Positions 47,988 to 52,633 of a stretch of 64,000 nt of DNA are shown piece after piece (position 1 is the first letter of the stretch; every line of letters starts with the position of its first letter). The notes under the pieces were generated by a model. That model had not been told where the DNA came from. It made no database searches and was given only the letters and a program-made list of their open reading frames with translations. A program made the translations under genes and the position numbers. This stretch comes from a virus, in IMG/VR virus record IMGVR_UViG_3300045988_057025; one strand, written 5' to 3'.

Positions 47988-48313
47988 TATAATTCAGACA
48001 AATAAATGTTTTGAGGATATTCGTTAAATACTAGTAGAGTTACTGGACAAATCCAAACTCTATCGTTATAATTCTTACTTTTACACAAGTAAGTAGCTCC
48101 ATTCTCATCTTCTTCAATCTTAGATAGAACAATCTTAGCTACAGAAGGGTCAACCATCTGCAACCTAACAAATCTATCATCAAGAGAATCAAGAAGATCG
48201 TCAGCCCCGCCAACCATAGCCAACTCTCCTGGGTCTCCATCGAAGTCTGGCCACCAATAAAACCAGACTCCTCCCACTTTTACAAATTCAAATGTTTTTC
48301 GCATTAAACACAA
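47987..48313 (-). CDS. hypothetical protein
   Basis: 108 aa ORF. Confidence 0.3.
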   Translation of the reverse strand: MCLMRKTFEFVKVGGVWFYWWPDFDGDPGELAMVGGADDLLDSLDDRFVRLQMVDPSVAKIVLSKIEEDENGATYLCKSKNYNDRVWICPVTLLVFNEYPQNIYLSEL

Positions 48314-48324
48314 ATTAAATTAAA

Positions 48325-48359
48325 CAAAAAATACCCCAACAACTTTCGCTGCTGGGGTA
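48325..48359 (-). terminator. rho-independent terminator downstream of tRNA-Glu
   Basis: TACCCCA-loop-TGGGGTA hairpin followed by T-run on minus strand. Confidence 0.5.
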
Positions 48360-48364
48360 CATAG

Positions 48365-48436
48365 TAACGCCAACGGGATTCGAACCCGTATGGCAGGCGT
48401 GAAAAGCCTGAATCCTAACCATTAGATGATGGCGCT
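48365..48436 (-). tRNA. tRNA-Glu(TTC)
   Basis: anticodon arm CAGGC-TTTTCAC-GCCTG; T-arm ACGGGTTCGAATCCCGT; acceptor AGCGCCA/TGGCGTT. Confidence 0.8.
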
Positions 48437-48439
48437 ATC

Positions 48440-49114
48440 CTACTGCACAATCAAGCTATAAGCTTCTTGCAACAGTTTAATAGTTGGAACCATACGGTTA
48501 TCAACAACTATTATTTTATAAATGTTCAGAATTTCTTTGTAGGTTAAAGATGTACAAGTTAGAAATATCTGCACATCTTCGTTTACAGAACCATTTGACA
48601 ATCCTAAATCTACTTTAATCATACTGGGTAATGTCCCAATCTGAGAAATATCCCAAGTAGATTTAGTTCTCCTGAAAACTTCCCGCTGTTTGGAAGTAAG
48701 TTGCTTTTCTTTCAATCTAGACTCAATAATAGTACCATCAAACGTTAACGAACCTCCATCGGTATTACTATTATTTAATGCTAGCTGAATCTTCTGAACT
48801 GCAGAGTCTTTAGGTTTTGGCTTAAGTTGCACTCCTTCCTTCAAGCCCTTAATAATCTGCAATGAAGGAATAAAGTCTTTTATTTGAGTTGCATTCCATA
48901 CAAGAAATTTTCCAGGACTATCCTTAACAGTAACTATATACTTAGTCCCTCCGTTCAATGGAATAATCACTTGTAAGTCTGCATCACTCATTTTACTTAA
49001 ATGGTCTGATACTCTAACTTTGACGTTTCCAATGACAAAGTAGCGAGAAACAGTTGTTTCCGCTTCGATAATCTCAGTAGCAGTTGCTACTAAATACTTT
49101 TCTAATCTAGTCAT
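48440..49114 (-). CDS. hypothetical protein (TAG stop)
   Basis: 224 aa ORF ending in TAG 4 nt upstream of tRNA-Glu. Confidence 0.3.
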   Translation of the reverse strand: MTRLEKYLVATATEIIEAETTVSRYFVIGNVKVRVSDHLSKMSDADLQVIIPLNGGTKYIVTVKDSPGKFLVWNATQIKDFIPSLQIIKGLKEGVQLKPKPKDSAVQKIQLALNNSNTDGGSLTFDGTIIESRLKEKQLTSKQREVFRRTKSTWDISQIGTLPSMIKVDLGLSNGSVNEDVQIFLTCTSLTYKEILNIYKIIVVDNRMVPTIKLLQEAYSLIVQ

Positions 49115-49141
49115 AAAAATTAATCTAATTTAATGGTTAAG

Positions 49142-49214
49142 ATCCCCCACTCGGATTCGAACCGAGGTCTCGAGATTACAAATCACGTGTTCTAACCAAC
49201 TAAACTACAGGGGA
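49142..49214 (-). tRNA. tRNA-Thr(TGT)
   Basis: anticodon loop TTTGTAA, one mismatch in anticodon stem; T-arm CTCGGTTCGAATCCGAG; acceptor TCCCCTG/TGGGGGA. Confidence 0.7.
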
Positions 49215-49221
49215 ATAAATG

Positions 49222-49255
49222 CCGAGGCTGGGGGATTCGAACCCCAACCTTCACA
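49222..49255 (-). other. orphan tRNA 3' half (anticodon 3' stem + T-arm + acceptor 3' strand), diverged duplicate of the 3' half of tRNA-Asp
   Basis: TGTGAAGGTTGGGGTTCGAATCCCCCAGCCTCGG; pairs perfectly with acceptor and anticodon stem of the 5' half at 49915..49953. Confidence 0.55.
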
Positions 49256-49258
49256 GTG

Positions 49259-49320
49259 CCGAGAGTACCAGACTCGAACTGGTGACCTTCGCATAGACAG
49301 TGCACTATTCTACCACTGAA
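49259..49320 (-). tRNA. tRNA-Asp(GTC), intact copy
   Basis: CGAGGGT acceptor, D-arm GTTCAGTGGTAGAAT, anticodon loop CTGTCTA (pos 37 is U, one stem mismatch), T-arm ACCAGTTCGAGTCTGGT. Confidence 0.65.
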
Positions 49321-49341
49321 CTAACCCTCGGTGTAACTGGA

Positions 49342-49893
49342 TTACTCCAGACTAATTAAACCCTTCTCTAACATAATATGGTGATTCGGACATAACCATA
49401 CTAAATTATTCTCGTTGTTAATCTCCTTAATAAGAGTGTCTTCGTCAAATTCTAATATTCCTTTAAGATGATGTACTTCAAGTATTGCATCAAATTCATG
49501 ATTATGACAATATTGACATACTTTCTCACGTTCGGAACTTTCTAATACTCTACGAGCATTAGTCCTTATTTCTTGACATTTAGATGATAAGTACTTCTGC
49601 CCAGATGTATAATAACCTAATGTTTTGTTACCAATTCCATTAAGTTCTTCCCAGCAACTACGACACATTTCTGAATCTTTATGCTTAGGTTTACCACATC
49701 TAGGACATATCTTGTTTTCATCGTGCTTTATCCTACCTCTATTATTGTAAGAAGCAGCACACGAATGACTACAAAACTGTTTCTTCCTCACATCTGCGAC
49801 CCTCTGATTATCTAGTACTTCGATTACCTTACCACATTCCTTACAGTGGTTAGGATTCTCATAATACAATTTAAGAGATTGTTCTCGATTCAC
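49342..49893 (-). CDS. HNH homing endonuclease
   Basis: 183 aa, GTG start; Zn-finger CxxC pairs; C-terminal HNH motif VHHLKG...NLVWLCPNHH. Confidence 0.75.
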   Translation of the reverse strand: MNREQSLKLYYENPNHCKECGKVIEVLDNQRVADVRKKQFCSHSCAASYNNRGRIKHDENKICPRCGKPKHKDSEMCRSCWEELNGIGNKTLGYYTSGQKYLSSKCQEIRTNARRVLESSEREKVCQYCHNHEFDAILEVHHLKGILEFDEDTLIKEINNENNLVWLCPNHHIMLEKGLISLE

Positions 49894-49914
49894 AGATAAG
49901 TTTAATTAATTTTA

Positions 49915-49953
49915 ATGACAGTGTGATATGCAAGCCATTACACCACAGCCTCG
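49915..49953 (-). other. orphan tRNA 5' half (acceptor 5' strand, D-arm, anticodon 5' stem and GTC anticodon loop)
   Basis: CGAGGCTGTGGTGTAATGGCTTGCATATCACACTGTCAT; acceptor CGAGGCT is exact complement of AGCCTCG in 49222..49255. Confidence 0.5.
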
Positions 49954-50030
49954 AAAATGCAGGTATTTATCTCGTTACACCTGCGAGTCCGGCAATCCTT
50001 TCTTATATACCGCGTGAGCTGGCGGTTTTG

Positions 50031-50104
50031 TAGGGCTAATCAGACTTGAACTGATAACCTCCACATTATCAGTGTGGTGCTCTAACCAGTTGAGCTATAG
50101 CCCT
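50031..50104 (-). tRNA. tRNA-Ile(GAT)
   Basis: acceptor AGGGCTA/TAGCCCT; anticodon arm CCACA-CTGATAA-TGTGG; T-loop TTCAAGT. Confidence 0.8.
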
Positions 50105-50110
50105 ATTATG

Positions 50111-50671
50111 TGGACCTAACGGGAGTCGAACCCGTGTCCAAACAACCCTCGTTACAAGGATAACGTGCGTCTCATTTTTATTATATCAGCTAGGGAGTTC
50201 TAGCATTTAGGTAGTTTTATAAGTCTTACAAGAGTCCATACTAAGTATTTCTCTAGATGCTTATCTACAAGCTACCAAACTATAGGGCTGACCGAAGTCA
50301 ACGTTCCACCACTCCATTTACGTTGGAGAACGGAATGATACTTTAGAGATTCGTCACATCTCACGGAACACATCTTCCATCTGTTTTATGACATAGGAGA
50401 TTCAGTCTTACTAACTCTTAGAGTGTTCTGATTAAGAGCATATTACTAGGATTAGAGCCTAGCTCTCCATTATATCAATATACTCAACCTCTTCTGTTTC
50501 TAGGTCTCTCCCGTAACCCGACTTAGTTAATAGTGTCTACCAACAAGCCAGCAGCTTAGGCTGCCATTCTTACTTCGCTATAAGTAGCATTTATTATTTT
50601 CCTTCGTTTAAAGAGATTGCGCTCTACACGTCCTTATAATTCGTAATCGCCTGTCAAATCCAAGTAGGCCC
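50111..50671 (-). ncRNA. ssrA: tmRNA (SsrA)-like RNA, unusually long (~560 nt)
   Basis: 5' GGGCCTACTTGGATTTGACAGGCGATT matches tmRNA 5' consensus GGGGCUGAUUCUGGAUUCGACGGGAUUU; 3' GGACACGGGTTCGACTCCCGTTAGGTCCA matches GGACGCGGGUUCAACUCCCGCCAGCUCCA; G3-U70 pair; P2 pairing AAGGACGTG/CACGTTATCCTT; candidate tag ORF ...GCT ACT TAT AGC GAA GTA AGA ATG GCA GCC TAA (ATYSEVRMAA*). Confidence 0.6.
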
Positions 50672-50713
50672 ATGTTCCAGTTTATCTCTGATTAGAAAAC
50701 TGGAGAAAAGAAA

Positions 50714-50971
50714 TTATAGCATTATAGTTGAGCCAGGAGGCAAAATTGTGACCTTACAAGTAAGCAAACGACGCGTATCCTCAACAGTAAACAGCTTAGG
50801 ATAGCATAGACCGCTACGCCCACCAATGATAATTAAAGCATCTCCGTACCTCTGAACTATAGTTCCAGGCTCCATTTCCTCGTCACAGAACCAATTTACA
50901 ATCTCAGCTACATCTCCATCTTTCATATTTGTAAGATGTGTTGTGATTGTCTTATTAATTACTTTTGCCAT
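50714..50971 (-). CDS. hypothetical protein
   Basis: 85 aa ORF. Confidence 0.3.
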   Translation of the reverse strand: MAKVINKTITTHLTNMKDGDVAEIVNWFCDEEMEPGTIVQRYGDALIIIGGRSGLCYPKLFTVEDTRRLLTCKVTILPPGSTIML

Positions 50972-52560: not shown

Positions 52561-52633
52561 TGGACACGCAGGGACTCGAACCCTATCTTCCGGTGTGCAA
52601 AACCAGCGCTCTAGCCATTTGAGCTAACGGCCC
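52561..52633 (-). tRNA. tRNA-Ala(TGC)
   Basis: acceptor GGGCCGT with G3-U70; D-arm GCTCAAATGGCTAGAGC; anticodon loop TTTGCAC; T-loop TTCGAGT; lower acceptor stem pairs poorly. Confidence 0.6.

What the first reader, a model, noticed from the sequence alone, without database searches (positions are those of the whole stretch)
49211..49975. tRNA-Asp(GTC) split into 5' and 3' halves flanking an HNH endonuclease gene and an intact tRNA-Asp copy
Minus-strand order is: 5' half (acceptor CGAGGCT, D-arm, anticodon stem TCACA, loop CTGTCAT) at ~49915-49953; HNH ORF 49893-49342; a complete tRNA-Asp(GTC) at 49320-49259; then CAC and a second 3' half (TGTGA-AGGT-TGGGGTTCGAATCCCCC-AGCCTCG) at 49255-49222. 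The orphan halves complement each other exactly in both the acceptor (CGAGGCT/AGCCTCG) and anticodon (TCACA/TGTGA) stems. Their T-stem carries compensatory changes relative to the intact copy (ACCAG/CTGGT versus TGGGG/CCCCC). This fits either a tRNA gene invaded by a homing-endonuclease cassette that carried a replacement tRNA copy, or a tRNA with a ~0.7 kb group-I-type intron in the anticodon loop. A splice after U35 would give the loop CTGT|CAC; the upstream exon ends in U and the candidate intron ends in G.
Basis: seen in the sequence. Interest (0 to 1): 0.7.

Follow-up and report, generated by a model that had tools for sequence, protein, structure and literature searches.

The report
Homing endonuclease carrying spare tRNA-Asp
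A phage tRNA-Asp gene has been cut in two at its anticodon loop by a 657-base mobile element made of a homing-endonuclease gene plus its own working tRNA-Asp gene, so the element replaces the gene it destroys instead of splicing itself out as an intron would.

Summary
On the minus strand, a tRNA-Asp(GTC) 5' half (49953-49916) and 3' half (49256-22) flank a 657-nt insert (49915-49259). The insert holds an HNH ORF (49893-49342) and a complete tRNA-Asp(GTC) (49330-49259).

Sister phages carry the same tRNA-Asp uninterrupted, with identical flanks.

The insert is independently mobile:
- Near-identical copies sit in different tRNA-Asp alleles and phage backgrounds.
- Diverged copies sit in near-identical backgrounds.
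- The junction is the same each time (CTGTCA|...|C) in five outer alleles.

It is not a ribozyme intron:
- No Rfam group I or II match.
- Only 33 nt of the insert is neither ORF nor tRNA.
- HNH synonymous sites are unconstrained.
- At least 8 lineages have irreparably damaged or lost outer halves yet keep the inner tRNA.

The inner tRNA shows compensatory changes in 6 pairs and also occurs free-standing. The HNH gene is under purifying selection (dN/dS 0.06). 12 of 13 non-nested relatives checked in viral contigs lie next to a tRNA-Asp gene.

Best reading: a homing-endonuclease cassette that carries a replacement tRNA. This is a new variant of a known kind. Cleavage and RNA fates are untested.

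The parts
49916..49953 (-). Outer (resident) tRNA-Asp(GTC) 5' half: acceptor 5' strand, D-arm, anticodon stem 5' strand TCACA, and loop bases CTGTCA. In Rfam's register the tRNA proper starts at 49952.
   Evidence: Sequence. Identical to the 5' part of the intact allele in L001 and others. The intact allele scores 54.7 bits as tRNA.
49259..49915 (-). The whole 657-nt mobile insert: leader, HNH gene, spacer and inner tRNA-Asp. Its boundaries can shift by up to 2 nt because of the CA repeat.
   Evidence: It is absent from empty-site relatives, with the breakpoints mapped by BLAST. It is exchanged as a unit independently of its flanks.
49894..49915 (-). AT-rich leader of the element (TTAAAATTAATTAAACTTATCT), lying between the 5' junction and the HNH start codon.
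   Evidence: A similar leader is present in diverged copies: L036, L043, L087, L088, L089, L090 and L131.
49342..49893 (-). HNH homing-endonuclease gene, 183 aa, GTG start. The N-terminal part has zinc-ribbon-like CxxC pairs. The C-terminal part is an HNH (beta-beta-alpha-metal) domain.
   Evidence: ORF. Pfam HNH_2 and PHROG HNH families. Invariant C126, C129, H141, H142, N159, N163, C168 and H172 across 33 homologs. AlphaFold mean pLDDT 89.9, with the best PDB fold hits being HNH nicking endonucleases at weak E-values of 0.08-0.2. dN/dS is 0.06 against L036.
49331..49341 (-). 11-nt spacer (TCCAGTTACAC) between the HNH stop codon and the inner tRNA.
   Evidence: Sequence.
49259..49330 (-). Inner tRNA-Asp(GTC), 72 nt, anticodon loop CUGUCUA. 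This is the element's cargo and replacement copy.
   Evidence: ARAGORN. Rfam tRNA 53.4 bits. Across 14 distinct copies, 6 of 21 pairs carry compensatory double changes and 95% of cells are paired; 0 of 500 shuffles reached this. The same tRNA type occurs free-standing in L048 and L060.
49257..49258 (-). The dinucleotide CA, which also occurs at 49917-49916. It makes the exact insertion point ambiguous (35/36, 36/37 or 37/38).
   Evidence: The two BLAST segments against the empty sites overlap by 2 nt.
49222..49256 (-). Outer tRNA-Asp 3' half: loop base C38, anticodon stem 3' strand TGTGA, variable loop, T-arm, acceptor 3' strand and discriminator.
   Evidence: Sequence. It matches the intact allele except for C versus T at one acceptor position.
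49141..49214 (-). tRNA-Thr(TGT), the downstream neighbour. It forms part of the conserved flank used to recognise empty sites.
   Evidence: ARAGORN and Rfam. The same neighbour follows the intact tRNA-Asp in L001 and others.
50030..50104 (-). tRNA-Ile(GAT), the upstream neighbour in the tRNA array. A tmRNA gene at 50108-50671 lies just upstream of it.
   Evidence: ARAGORN and Rfam.

Best explanation
This is a composite homing element. A free-standing HNH homing-endonuclease gene travels fused to its own tRNA-Asp(GTC) gene, and the pair is inserted in the anticodon loop of the phage's resident tRNA-Asp gene.

Inferred mechanism:
1. In a mixed infection, the HNH enzyme cuts or nicks the uninterrupted tRNA-Asp gene of a phage that lacks the element, at or near the anticodon-loop DNA (loop CTGTCAC).
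2. The break is repaired from the element-bearing genome. That genome's two tRNA halves act as homology arms reaching right up to the break, so the 657-nt cassette is copied in precisely.
3. Insertion destroys both the target site (self-immunity) and the resident tRNA.
4. The cassette's own tRNA-Asp supplies the lost function. It has a different anticodon stem and the loop CTGTCTA, so it is presumably not recognised by the enzyme.
5. The outer halves are then dead remnants that decay.
6. The HNH mRNA is probably made from the tRNA-array transcript, and its 3' end is probably set by RNase P cutting at the inner tRNA.

Shown here: presence/absence polymorphism; independent mobility with fixed boundaries; selection on the HNH gene and the inner tRNA; decay of the outer halves; family-wide linkage of this HNH family to tRNA-Asp genes.

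Inferred, not shown: the cleavage itself and its site; immunity of the inner copy; the expression route.
For: 1. Empty sites. Eight contigs share the window's flanks and carry the intact tRNA-Asp. A second lineage (L043) has its own empty-site relatives, L080 and L081.

2. Incongruence between element and flanks:
- WIN vs L148: flanks 99.2% identical, element 86.9%.
- WIN vs L154: element 98.2% identical, flanks unrelated, different outer allele.
- L154 vs L153: flanks 99.8-100% identical, elements 81.5% over the part that aligns, one with a full-length and one with a short HNH.

3. The same junction, CTGTCA|TTAAAA...CTCTCGGCA|C, occurs in five different outer alleles: window type, L043 type, L087, L090 and L131.

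4. The HNH gene is under purifying selection. dN/dS is 0.06, with pS 0.53 (WIN vs L036). Catalytic-motif residues are invariant in 33 homologs.

5. The inner tRNA:
- 6 of 21 pairs show compensatory double changes, and 0 of 500 shuffles reach this.
- The anticodon loop is invariant.
- The same type occurs free-standing in L048 and L060.
- The loop CUGUCUA is also found in chromosomal tRNA-Asp genes of Bacteroidota MAGs.

6. The outer halves are unrecoverable in at least 8 independent lineages that still keep the inner tRNA:
- 3' acceptor strand lost: L023/64.
- T-loop deleted: L037/130.
- 5' half deleted: L038, L041, L063 and apparently L165 (only the ~40 nt upstream of its inner tRNA were read: no HNH 3' end there).
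- HNH internally deleted, loop bases lost: L062/129.
- Imprecise junctions that cannot restore GTC: L088/147 and L089.

No such lesion was seen in the intact alleles examined.

7. The wider HNH family (48-72% identity) is linked to tRNA-Asp. 12 of 13 non-nested relatives examined in viral contigs have a tRNA-Asp gene overlapping the HNH gene or within a few hundred bases of it. L122, L124 and L126 fit as well. This includes HNH placed directly upstream of a tRNA-Asp (L044, L196), the plausible precursor of the cassette.

8. There is no ribozyme.
Against: - No biochemical evidence shows that this HNH cuts the intact allele, and nothing shows where it would cut.
- Immunity of the inner copy is inferred only from sequence differences at loop positions 37 and 38 and in the stem.
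- L089 sits in a background whose intact allele already has the loop CTGTCTA. The loop variant alone therefore cannot explain immunity for every family member.
- Because homing resets the exons to the local allele, intact and perfectly complementary outer halves (as in the window) do not by themselves rule out a function for them.
- The fold match of the model to HNH nucleases in the PDB is weak (E 0.08-0.2), and the Pfam hit only just passes its cut-off.
- Some of the small deletions seen in metagenome assemblies (e.g. L152) could be assembly errors.
Confidence: 0.8

Rival explanations
1. A true intron. The 657-nt insert is removed from the pre-tRNA by self-splicing (group I or II) or by some other RNA-level excision, and the outer tRNA-Asp is the functional product. 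On this view the inner tRNA-like fold is part of the intron.
For: - The insertion is in the anticodon loop, where bacterial tRNA group I introns sit (review PMC3984707, listed).
- One junction register gives an exon ending in U and an insert ending in G.
- The halves in the window are perfectly complementary.
Against: - No group I or II match at E<=10, even with lax filters on the insert alone, and none at gathering score across 42-64 kb.
- No guide sequence complementary to the 5' exon.
- Only 22 + 11 nt of the insert is neither ORF nor a 53-bit tRNA.
- Synonymous sites of the ORF are unconstrained (pS 0.53 at dN/dS 0.06).
- The short variants L043 and L153 lack about 170 nt of the insert.
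- Many lineages have unusable outer halves yet retain the insert's tRNA.
Confidence: 0.04
2. A passive rearrangement. The nested arrangement arose once by illegitimate recombination between two tRNA-Asp genes and spreads only by ordinary phage recombination. The HNH gene is just a neighbour and does not drive insertion at this site.
For: - No cleavage data exist.
- tRNA arrays are recombination hot spots.
- The imprecise junctions in L088 and L089 show that illegitimate events do happen here.
Against: - The identical junction occurs in five distinct outer alleles and in unrelated flanks.
- The element is in the majority within its phage group: about 26 filled against 8 empty viral contigs.
- The HNH gene is kept under strong purifying selection.
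- The whole HNH family, in other arrangements too, tracks tRNA-Asp genes specifically.
- Degenerate HNH copies coexist with intact ones, as expected from a homing-endonuclease life cycle.
Confidence: 0.1
3. The outer halves still work. After RNase P and 3'-end processing release the inner tRNA, either the two halves pair through their acceptor and anticodon stems and are joined by an RNA ligase, or the halves serve as regulatory or leader RNAs for the HNH mRNA.
For: - The halves in the window and in most copies are intact and fully complementary.
- The 5' strand TCACA can also pair with TGTGA overlapping the HNH GTG start codon (49894-49890), which could gate translation (by inspection only).
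Against: - The 5' half would remain attached to about 590 nt of mRNA, with no known trimming route.
- At least 8 lineages have lost or damaged one half with no loss of the element's tRNA.
- Recent homing into intact alleles explains the complementarity.
Confidence: 0.05

Closest known systems
T4 SegB, a free-standing GIY-YIG homing endonuclease in the T4 tRNA gene cluster (PMC2330249; tRNA co-localisation survey in PMC13096335)
   Same: - A phage homing endonuclease that lives in a tRNA array.
- It recognises tRNA-gene DNA; for SegB this is the T-psi-C stem-loop motif.
- It drives inheritance of itself together with neighbouring tRNA genes.
   Different: - Different nuclease family: HNH here, GIY-YIG for SegB.
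- SegB sits between genes.
- The cassette here is nested inside the target tRNA's anticodon loop, splits that tRNA, and brings a same-isotype replacement.
Mobile group I introns in bacterial tRNA anticodon loops, and endonuclease-containing phage group I introns (review PMC3984707)
   Same: - Insertion in the anticodon loop of a tRNA gene.
- Carries a homing-endonuclease ORF.
- Shows presence/absence polymorphism and precise junctions.
   Different: - No ribozyme core, so no splicing is expected.
- The cost of insertion is offset by a spare gene copy rather than by RNA splicing.
- The exons decay.
Intronless homing by free-standing endonucleases of T-even phages, such as SegF, SegG and MobE (review PMC2988022; MobE in PMC2790892)
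   Same: Endonuclease-driven gene conversion that co-transfers the endonuclease gene and adjacent DNA with no intron involved.
   Different: - Those genes lie in intergenic positions next to their targets.
- Here the unit lies inside the target gene and includes a full replacement of it.
Free-standing endonuclease insertions in fungal mitochondrial genes that bring a duplicate 3' end of the host gene, e.g. Allomyces atp6
   Same: The mobile unit carries a replacement for the part of the gene it displaces, and leaves a dead remnant downstream.
   Different: - Those cases involve protein-coding genes with partial, in-frame C-terminal replacement, and GIY-YIG or LAGLIDADG enzymes.
- Here a whole tRNA gene is carried, and both halves of the target remain as remnants.
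'Fractured genes': a homing endonuclease gene lying between the two halves of a split-intein gene (PMC2677866)
   Same: A gene physically split in two by a homing-endonuclease gene.
   Different: There, function is restored by protein trans-splicing. Here it is restored by a spare gene.

Membership tests
HNH homing endonuclease gene (mobile, free-standing type) | HNH / beta-beta-alpha-metal nuclease motif | tested here: met
   - Pfam HNH_2 scores 22.0 bits against a cut-off of 21.
- PHROG HNH families match.
- Invariant CxxC...HH...N...N...CPNxH motif in 33 homologs.
- The best PDB fold hits are HNH nicking endonucleases, but at weak E-values of 0.08-0.2.
HNH homing endonuclease gene (mobile, free-standing type) | Presence/absence polymorphism at one fixed site between otherwise near-identical genomes | tested here: met
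   - Window vs L001 and others: flanks 98.7-100% identical, 657-nt insert absent.
- L043 vs L080/L081.
HNH homing endonuclease gene (mobile, free-standing type) | Horizontal mobility: the element's relationships disagree with those of its flanks | tested here: met
   
- WIN vs L148: flanks 99.2%, element 86.9%.
- WIN vs L154: element 98.2%, flanks unrelated.
- L154 vs L153: flanks 99.8-100%, elements 81.5% over the aligned part.
HNH homing endonuclease gene (mobile, free-standing type) | Site-specific cleavage of the element-free allele, with immunity of the element-bearing genome | not testable with these tools
   Needs purified protein and DNA substrates. Only sequence differences can be reported here: target loop CTGTCAC versus inner-copy loop CTGTCTA.
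HNH homing endonuclease gene (mobile, free-standing type) | Life cycle of invasion and decay: selected, intact ORFs alongside degenerate copies | tested here: met
   - dN/dS 0.06.
- Truncated or internally deleted HNH genes in L038, L041, L062, L063, L131, L209 and L210.
Group I intron | Conserved catalytic core (P3-P9) detectable by the Rfam Intron_gpI model | tested here: not met
   No hit at E<=10 on 48300-50800 or on the insert alone. None at gathering score across 42000-64000.
Group I intron | P1 helix: an internal guide sequence pairing with the end of the 5' exon | tested here: not met
   No [GA]CAGTG or ACAG[TC]G anywhere in the insert. The shorter [GA]CAGT occurs only once, 137 nt in and inside the ORF.
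Group I intron | 5' exon ends in U and the intron ends in G | tested here: met
   True for the register CTGT|CA...GG|CAC. This is only one of three equivalent registers created by the CA repeat.
Group I intron | Exons kept functional; the spliced product is the gene's purpose | tested here: not met
   The outer halves are deleted, truncated or imprecisely joined in at least 8 lineages that keep the insert's tRNA.
Group I intron | Self-splicing of the transcript | not testable with these tools
   Needs in-vitro transcription and splicing, or RNA-seq.
Group II intron | Domain V/VI RNA and a reverse-transcriptase/maturase ORF | tested here: not met
   No Rfam group II hit. The ORF is a 183-aa HNH protein with no reverse-transcriptase domain.
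Protein-spliced (archaeal/eukaryal type) tRNA intron at position 37/38 | Bulge-helix-bulge motif around the splice sites, and a splicing endonuclease available | tested here: not met
- By inspection of the sequence, no helix extends beyond the 5-bp anticodon stem.
- The insert's 3' end is the acceptor stem of the inner tRNA.
- The phage carries a tmRNA gene. From general knowledge, tmRNA is a bacterial feature and bacteria lack this splicing enzyme, so a bacterial host is inferred.
Functional tRNA (the inner copy) | Cloverleaf maintained by compensatory substitutions; canonical D and T loops; GTC anticodon | tested here: met
   - 53.4 bits.
- 6 pairs with double changes, 95% of cells paired, 0 of 500 shuffles as high.
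- Free-standing copies exist in other phages.
- The unusual U37 is shared with chromosomal Bacteroidota tRNA-Asp genes.
- Aminoacylation was not testable.

The most novel reading that the evidence does not exclude
The most novel reading not excluded is that the nested tRNA acts as a 'tRNA-shaped intron'. RNase P and tRNA 3'-end processing would cut out the inner tRNA. The outer halves, held together by their acceptor and anticodon stems, would then be trimmed and rejoined by a cellular or phage RNA ligase. One locus would thus yield two tRNA-Asp species by a ribozyme-free, tRNA-processing-based splicing route in a bacterial system.
Probability: 0.03. Interest if true: 0.9.

Novelty: new variant of a known kind. 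Interest (0 to 1): 0.55.

Why it matters
Homing endonuclease genes can live inside important genes because they hide in self-splicing introns or inteins. Otherwise they avoid genes altogether and sit between them.

This element shows a third route for an RNA gene. It lands inside the target, destroys it, and brings a working, presumably cleavage-resistant copy of the same gene.

Consequences:
- It makes the phage depend on the cassette's tRNA.
- It explains why tRNA halves and 'duplicated' tRNAs appear in phage tRNA arrays.
- It gives annotators a pattern to look for: an orphan T-arm next to an endonuclease gene.
- It offers a natural system for asking how endonucleases colonise conserved genes before, or without, acquiring an intron.
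- The HNH family, with its apparent specificity for tRNA-Asp DNA, could be a source of new sequence-specific nucleases.

Tried and rejected
- **Group I/II intron.** Three Rfam scans, including a permissive one on the insert alone, found nothing. A search for a P1 guide sequence also found nothing.
- **ARAGORN intron mode.** Run on the region with introns allowed, it did not call the split tRNA. It does call the tRNA once the halves are joined by hand.
- **L088 and L089 as a different target tRNA.** Brute-force joining gave ambiguous isotypes. Their intact relatives showed that both are tRNA-Asp of another family with scrambled junctions.
- **U37/A38 in the inner tRNA as a defect or a pure immunity mutation.** Rejected as an anomaly, because the same loop occurs in chromosomal Bacteroidota tRNA-Asp genes and in many unrelated phage arrays.
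- **The 1-nt deletion in L036's outer 3' half as a lesion.** Dropped, because in the other acceptor register it still folds.
- **Small deletions in L152.** Not used; they may be assembly errors.
- **Sequence search of the PDB.** No homolog found.
- **crAss-like affiliation.** Suggested by a tRNA-only BLAST hit but not borne out. A 671-aa neighbouring protein is about 43-44% identical to proteins of large Enterobacteriaceae and Caulobacter phages. The host stays unknown.
- **Sigma-70 promoter and terminator scan.** Nothing convincing at the element's borders.
- **Literature.** Searches found no description of a tRNA nested with an endonuclease inside another tRNA.
Full report
**1. What is in the sequence**

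Everything below is on the minus strand. The region reads, in order:
- tRNA-Ile (50104-50030);
- a 5' tRNA-Asp half, CGAGGCTGTGGTGTAATGGCTTGCATATCACACTGTCA (49953-49916);
- a 22-nt AT-rich leader;
- a 183-aa ORF starting with GTG (49893-49342);
- an 11-nt spacer;
- a complete tRNA-Asp(GTC) (49330-49259; ARAGORN; Rfam 53.4 bits);
- the dinucleotide CA;
- a 3' tRNA-Asp half, CTGTGAAGGTTGGGGTTCGAATCCCCCAGCCTCGG (49256-49222);
- tRNA-Thr, seven bases further on (49214-49141).

Joined by hand, the two halves are called tRNA-Asp(gtc) by ARAGORN. There are small corrections. The inner tRNA begins at 49330, not 49320. Rfam prefers an outer-tRNA register shifted by one base, which gives U8 and a 4-bp D-stem.

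**2. It is an insertion, and empty sites exist**

An exact search for the uninterrupted anticodon arm found 16 viral contigs. Eight of them (L001, 2, 3, 5, 7, 9, 10, 13) share the window's flanks. They carry one intact tRNA-Asp where the window has two halves. This intact allele scores 54.7 bits as a tRNA.

BLAST places the breakpoints so that the insert is 657 nt (49915-49259), with a 2-nt CA ambiguity. About 26 viral contigs of the same phage group carry the insert, so it is the majority state.

**3. The insert moves on its own, always to the same spot**

A diverged copy in L043 (79% identical, with a shorter HNH) sits at the same loop position of a different tRNA-Asp allele in a different neighbourhood. 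That lineage has its own empty-site relatives, L080 and L081.

Further copies were recovered through HNH homologs and through a metagenome scan. They show the identical junction CTGTCA|TTAAAA...CTCTCGGCA|C in five outer alleles. The anticodon stems of these alleles are TCACA/TGTGA, CCACA/TGTGG or CCTCC/GGAGG.

Comparing element and flanks separately:

| Pair | Flanks | Element |
|---|---|---|
| WIN vs L148 | 99.2% | 86.9% |
| WIN vs L154 | unrelated | 98.2% |
| L154 vs L153 | 99.8-100% | 81.5% (aligned part) |

The unit that is exchanged includes both the HNH gene and the inner tRNA. Its edges lie exactly in the tRNA loop.

**4. It is not a ribozyme intron**

- Rfam finds no group I or II intron at E<=10 in 2.5 kb around the site or on the insert alone. 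It finds none at gathering score across 22 kb.
- The insert has no sequence able to form P1 with the 5' exon.
- Apart from the ORF and a well-scoring tRNA, only 33 nt remain.
- Between the window and L036, the ORF has 53% synonymous differences at dN/dS 0.06. No hidden RNA structure constrains it.
- The L043/L153 variants lack about 170 nt of it.

**5. The outer halves behave as remnants and the inner tRNA as the working gene**

In element-bearing contigs the outer tRNA is often beyond repair:
- L023/64: the 3' acceptor strand is replaced.
- L037/130: the T-loop is deleted.
- L038 and L041: the 5' half and the N-terminal part of the HNH gene are deleted. L165 also has no HNH 3' end directly upstream of its inner tRNA; the region further upstream was not read.
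- L063: the 5' half and most of the HNH gene are displaced by a GIY-YIG ORF.
- L062/129: the HNH gene is internally deleted and loop bases are lost.
- L088/147 and L089: here the target was a different tRNA-Asp family. The junctions are imprecise and no joining could restore a GTC anticodon. The intact alleles of that family are in L094 and L093.

All of these lineages keep an intact inner tRNA. No comparable lesion was seen in the intact alleles examined.

The inner tRNA shows compensatory double changes in 6 of its 21 pairs across 14 distinct copies. Its anticodon loop is invariant, and 0 of 500 shuffles reach the observed covariation.

The same tRNA type occurs alone, with no HNH gene or halves around it, in L048 and L060. 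Its odd-looking loop CUGUCUA (U37) also occurs in chromosomal tRNA-Asp genes of Bacteroidota MAGs and in unrelated phage arrays. It is therefore a normal variant.

**6. The protein**

- The ORF matches Pfam HNH_2 just above its cut-off and matches PHROG HNH families.
- 33 homologs share an invariant CxxC...HH...N...N...CPNxH motif behind zinc-ribbon-like N-terminal modules.
- A confident AlphaFold model (pLDDT 89.9) finds HNH nicking endonucleases as its best PDB matches. These include a phage T5 enzyme and Gme HNH, at weak E-values.

The family is tied to tRNA-Asp. 12 of 13 non-nested relatives (48-75% identity) examined in viral contigs have a tRNA-Asp(GTC) gene overlapping the HNH gene or within a few hundred bases of it. 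The tRNA lies either just upstream or directly downstream. Three more contexts agree. The arrangement 'HNH immediately upstream of tRNA-Asp' (L044, L196) is the obvious precursor of the cassette.

**7. Mechanism proposed**

The enzyme cuts the intact tRNA-Asp gene of a co-infecting phage at or near the anticodon-loop DNA. Repair copies the cassette from the donor, whose tRNA halves serve as homology arms. The insertion removes the target site and kills the resident tRNA. The cassette's tRNA-Asp has a different stem and loop positions 37/38, so it presumably escapes cutting. It takes over decoding.

Afterwards the endonuclease gene may decay, while the tRNA is retained by selection. Where homology is poor (L088, L089), repair is untidy, as expected for break repair.

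Cleavage, immunity and expression are inferred, not shown.

One loose end remains. The background of L089 already has the CTGTCTA loop, so loop identity cannot be the whole basis of immunity for all family members.

**8. Comparison with what is known**

Free-standing homing endonucleases in phage tRNA clusters are known. T4 SegB recognises the T-psi-C motif of tRNA genes and drags neighbouring tRNA genes along (PMC2330249). SegB homologs co-localise with tRNA genes widely (PMC13096335).

Group I introns with endonuclease ORFs occupy tRNA anticodon loops in bacteria (PMC3984707).

What is new is the combination:
- an endonuclease gene nested inside its target RNA gene;
- no self-splicing element;
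- a full same-isotype replacement carried along.

Full-text searches found no report of this.

The nearest concept I know is a fungal mitochondrial endonuclease insertion that brings a duplicate gene end. I recall this from memory and did not check it.

I rate the finding as a new variant of a known kind, of moderate-to-good interest.

Noticed in passing
window 50108-50671 (-): A tmRNA gene (Rfam RF00023, 62.3 bits) sits directly upstream of tRNA-Ile in the phage tRNA array. It contains a 213-nt stretch that the model cannot align, in the 3' pseudoknot region. This could be an insertion or just a variable domain.
   Followed up: no
window 52561-52633 (-): A tRNA-like gene with anticodon TGC (Ala by the anticodon) was found by Rfam (39.5 bits) but missed by ARAGORN. 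Its acceptor stem looks imperfect.
   Followed up: partly
L063 (IMGVR_UViG_3300045988_058553), about 700 nt upstream of its inner tRNA-Asp: A GIY-YIG-type endonuclease ORF with several in-frame TAG codons has replaced the outer 5' half and most of the HNH gene. This is a second homing endonuclease competing for the same spot. TAG may be recoded in these phages, or the ORF may be dead.
   Followed up: no
L030, L032, L033, L035, L038: between the outer tRNA-Asp 3' end and tRNA-Thr: An extra insert of about 135 nt (AAGGCTTCTGGATGG...) is present in some relatives and absent from the window. Its nature is unknown.
   Followed up: no
L128, L135, L140, L146, L156, L157, L160, L164, L166, L167, L169 (tRNA-Asp genes): tRNA-Asp genes with anticodon loop CUGUCUA (a pyrimidine at position 37) are widespread. 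They occur in environmental contigs, some of them in tRNA arrays, and on chromosomes of Bacteroidota MAGs (Cyclobacteriaceae, Ekhidna, Schleiferiaceae). U37 is unusual for tRNAs in general.
   Followed up: partly
L088 (logan SRR24045182_6463), junctions of the element: The 5' junction carries GTGATG, the reverse complement of the CATCAC at the 3' junction. Together they form a 10-bp helix around the element. This looks like a fold-back repair scar at the palindromic anticodon arm.
   Followed up: partly
L165 (contig labelled Bacteroides sp. MAG, 186 kb) and L170 (contig labelled Clostridium sp. MAG): Contigs carrying this element and its tRNA flanks, one of them of phage-genome size, are deposited inside bacterial MAG bins. 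They look like phage contigs and this looks like mis-binning, so the labels should not be read as host assignments.
   Followed up: no
window 49226 (-) versus L001 and others: The window, L041 and L042 have C (AGCCTCG) where the empty sites and most filled sites have T (AGTCTCG) in the outer 3' acceptor strand. This turns a G-U pair into G-C. Both states occur among filled sites, so the difference is not tied to the insertion.
   Followed up: partly
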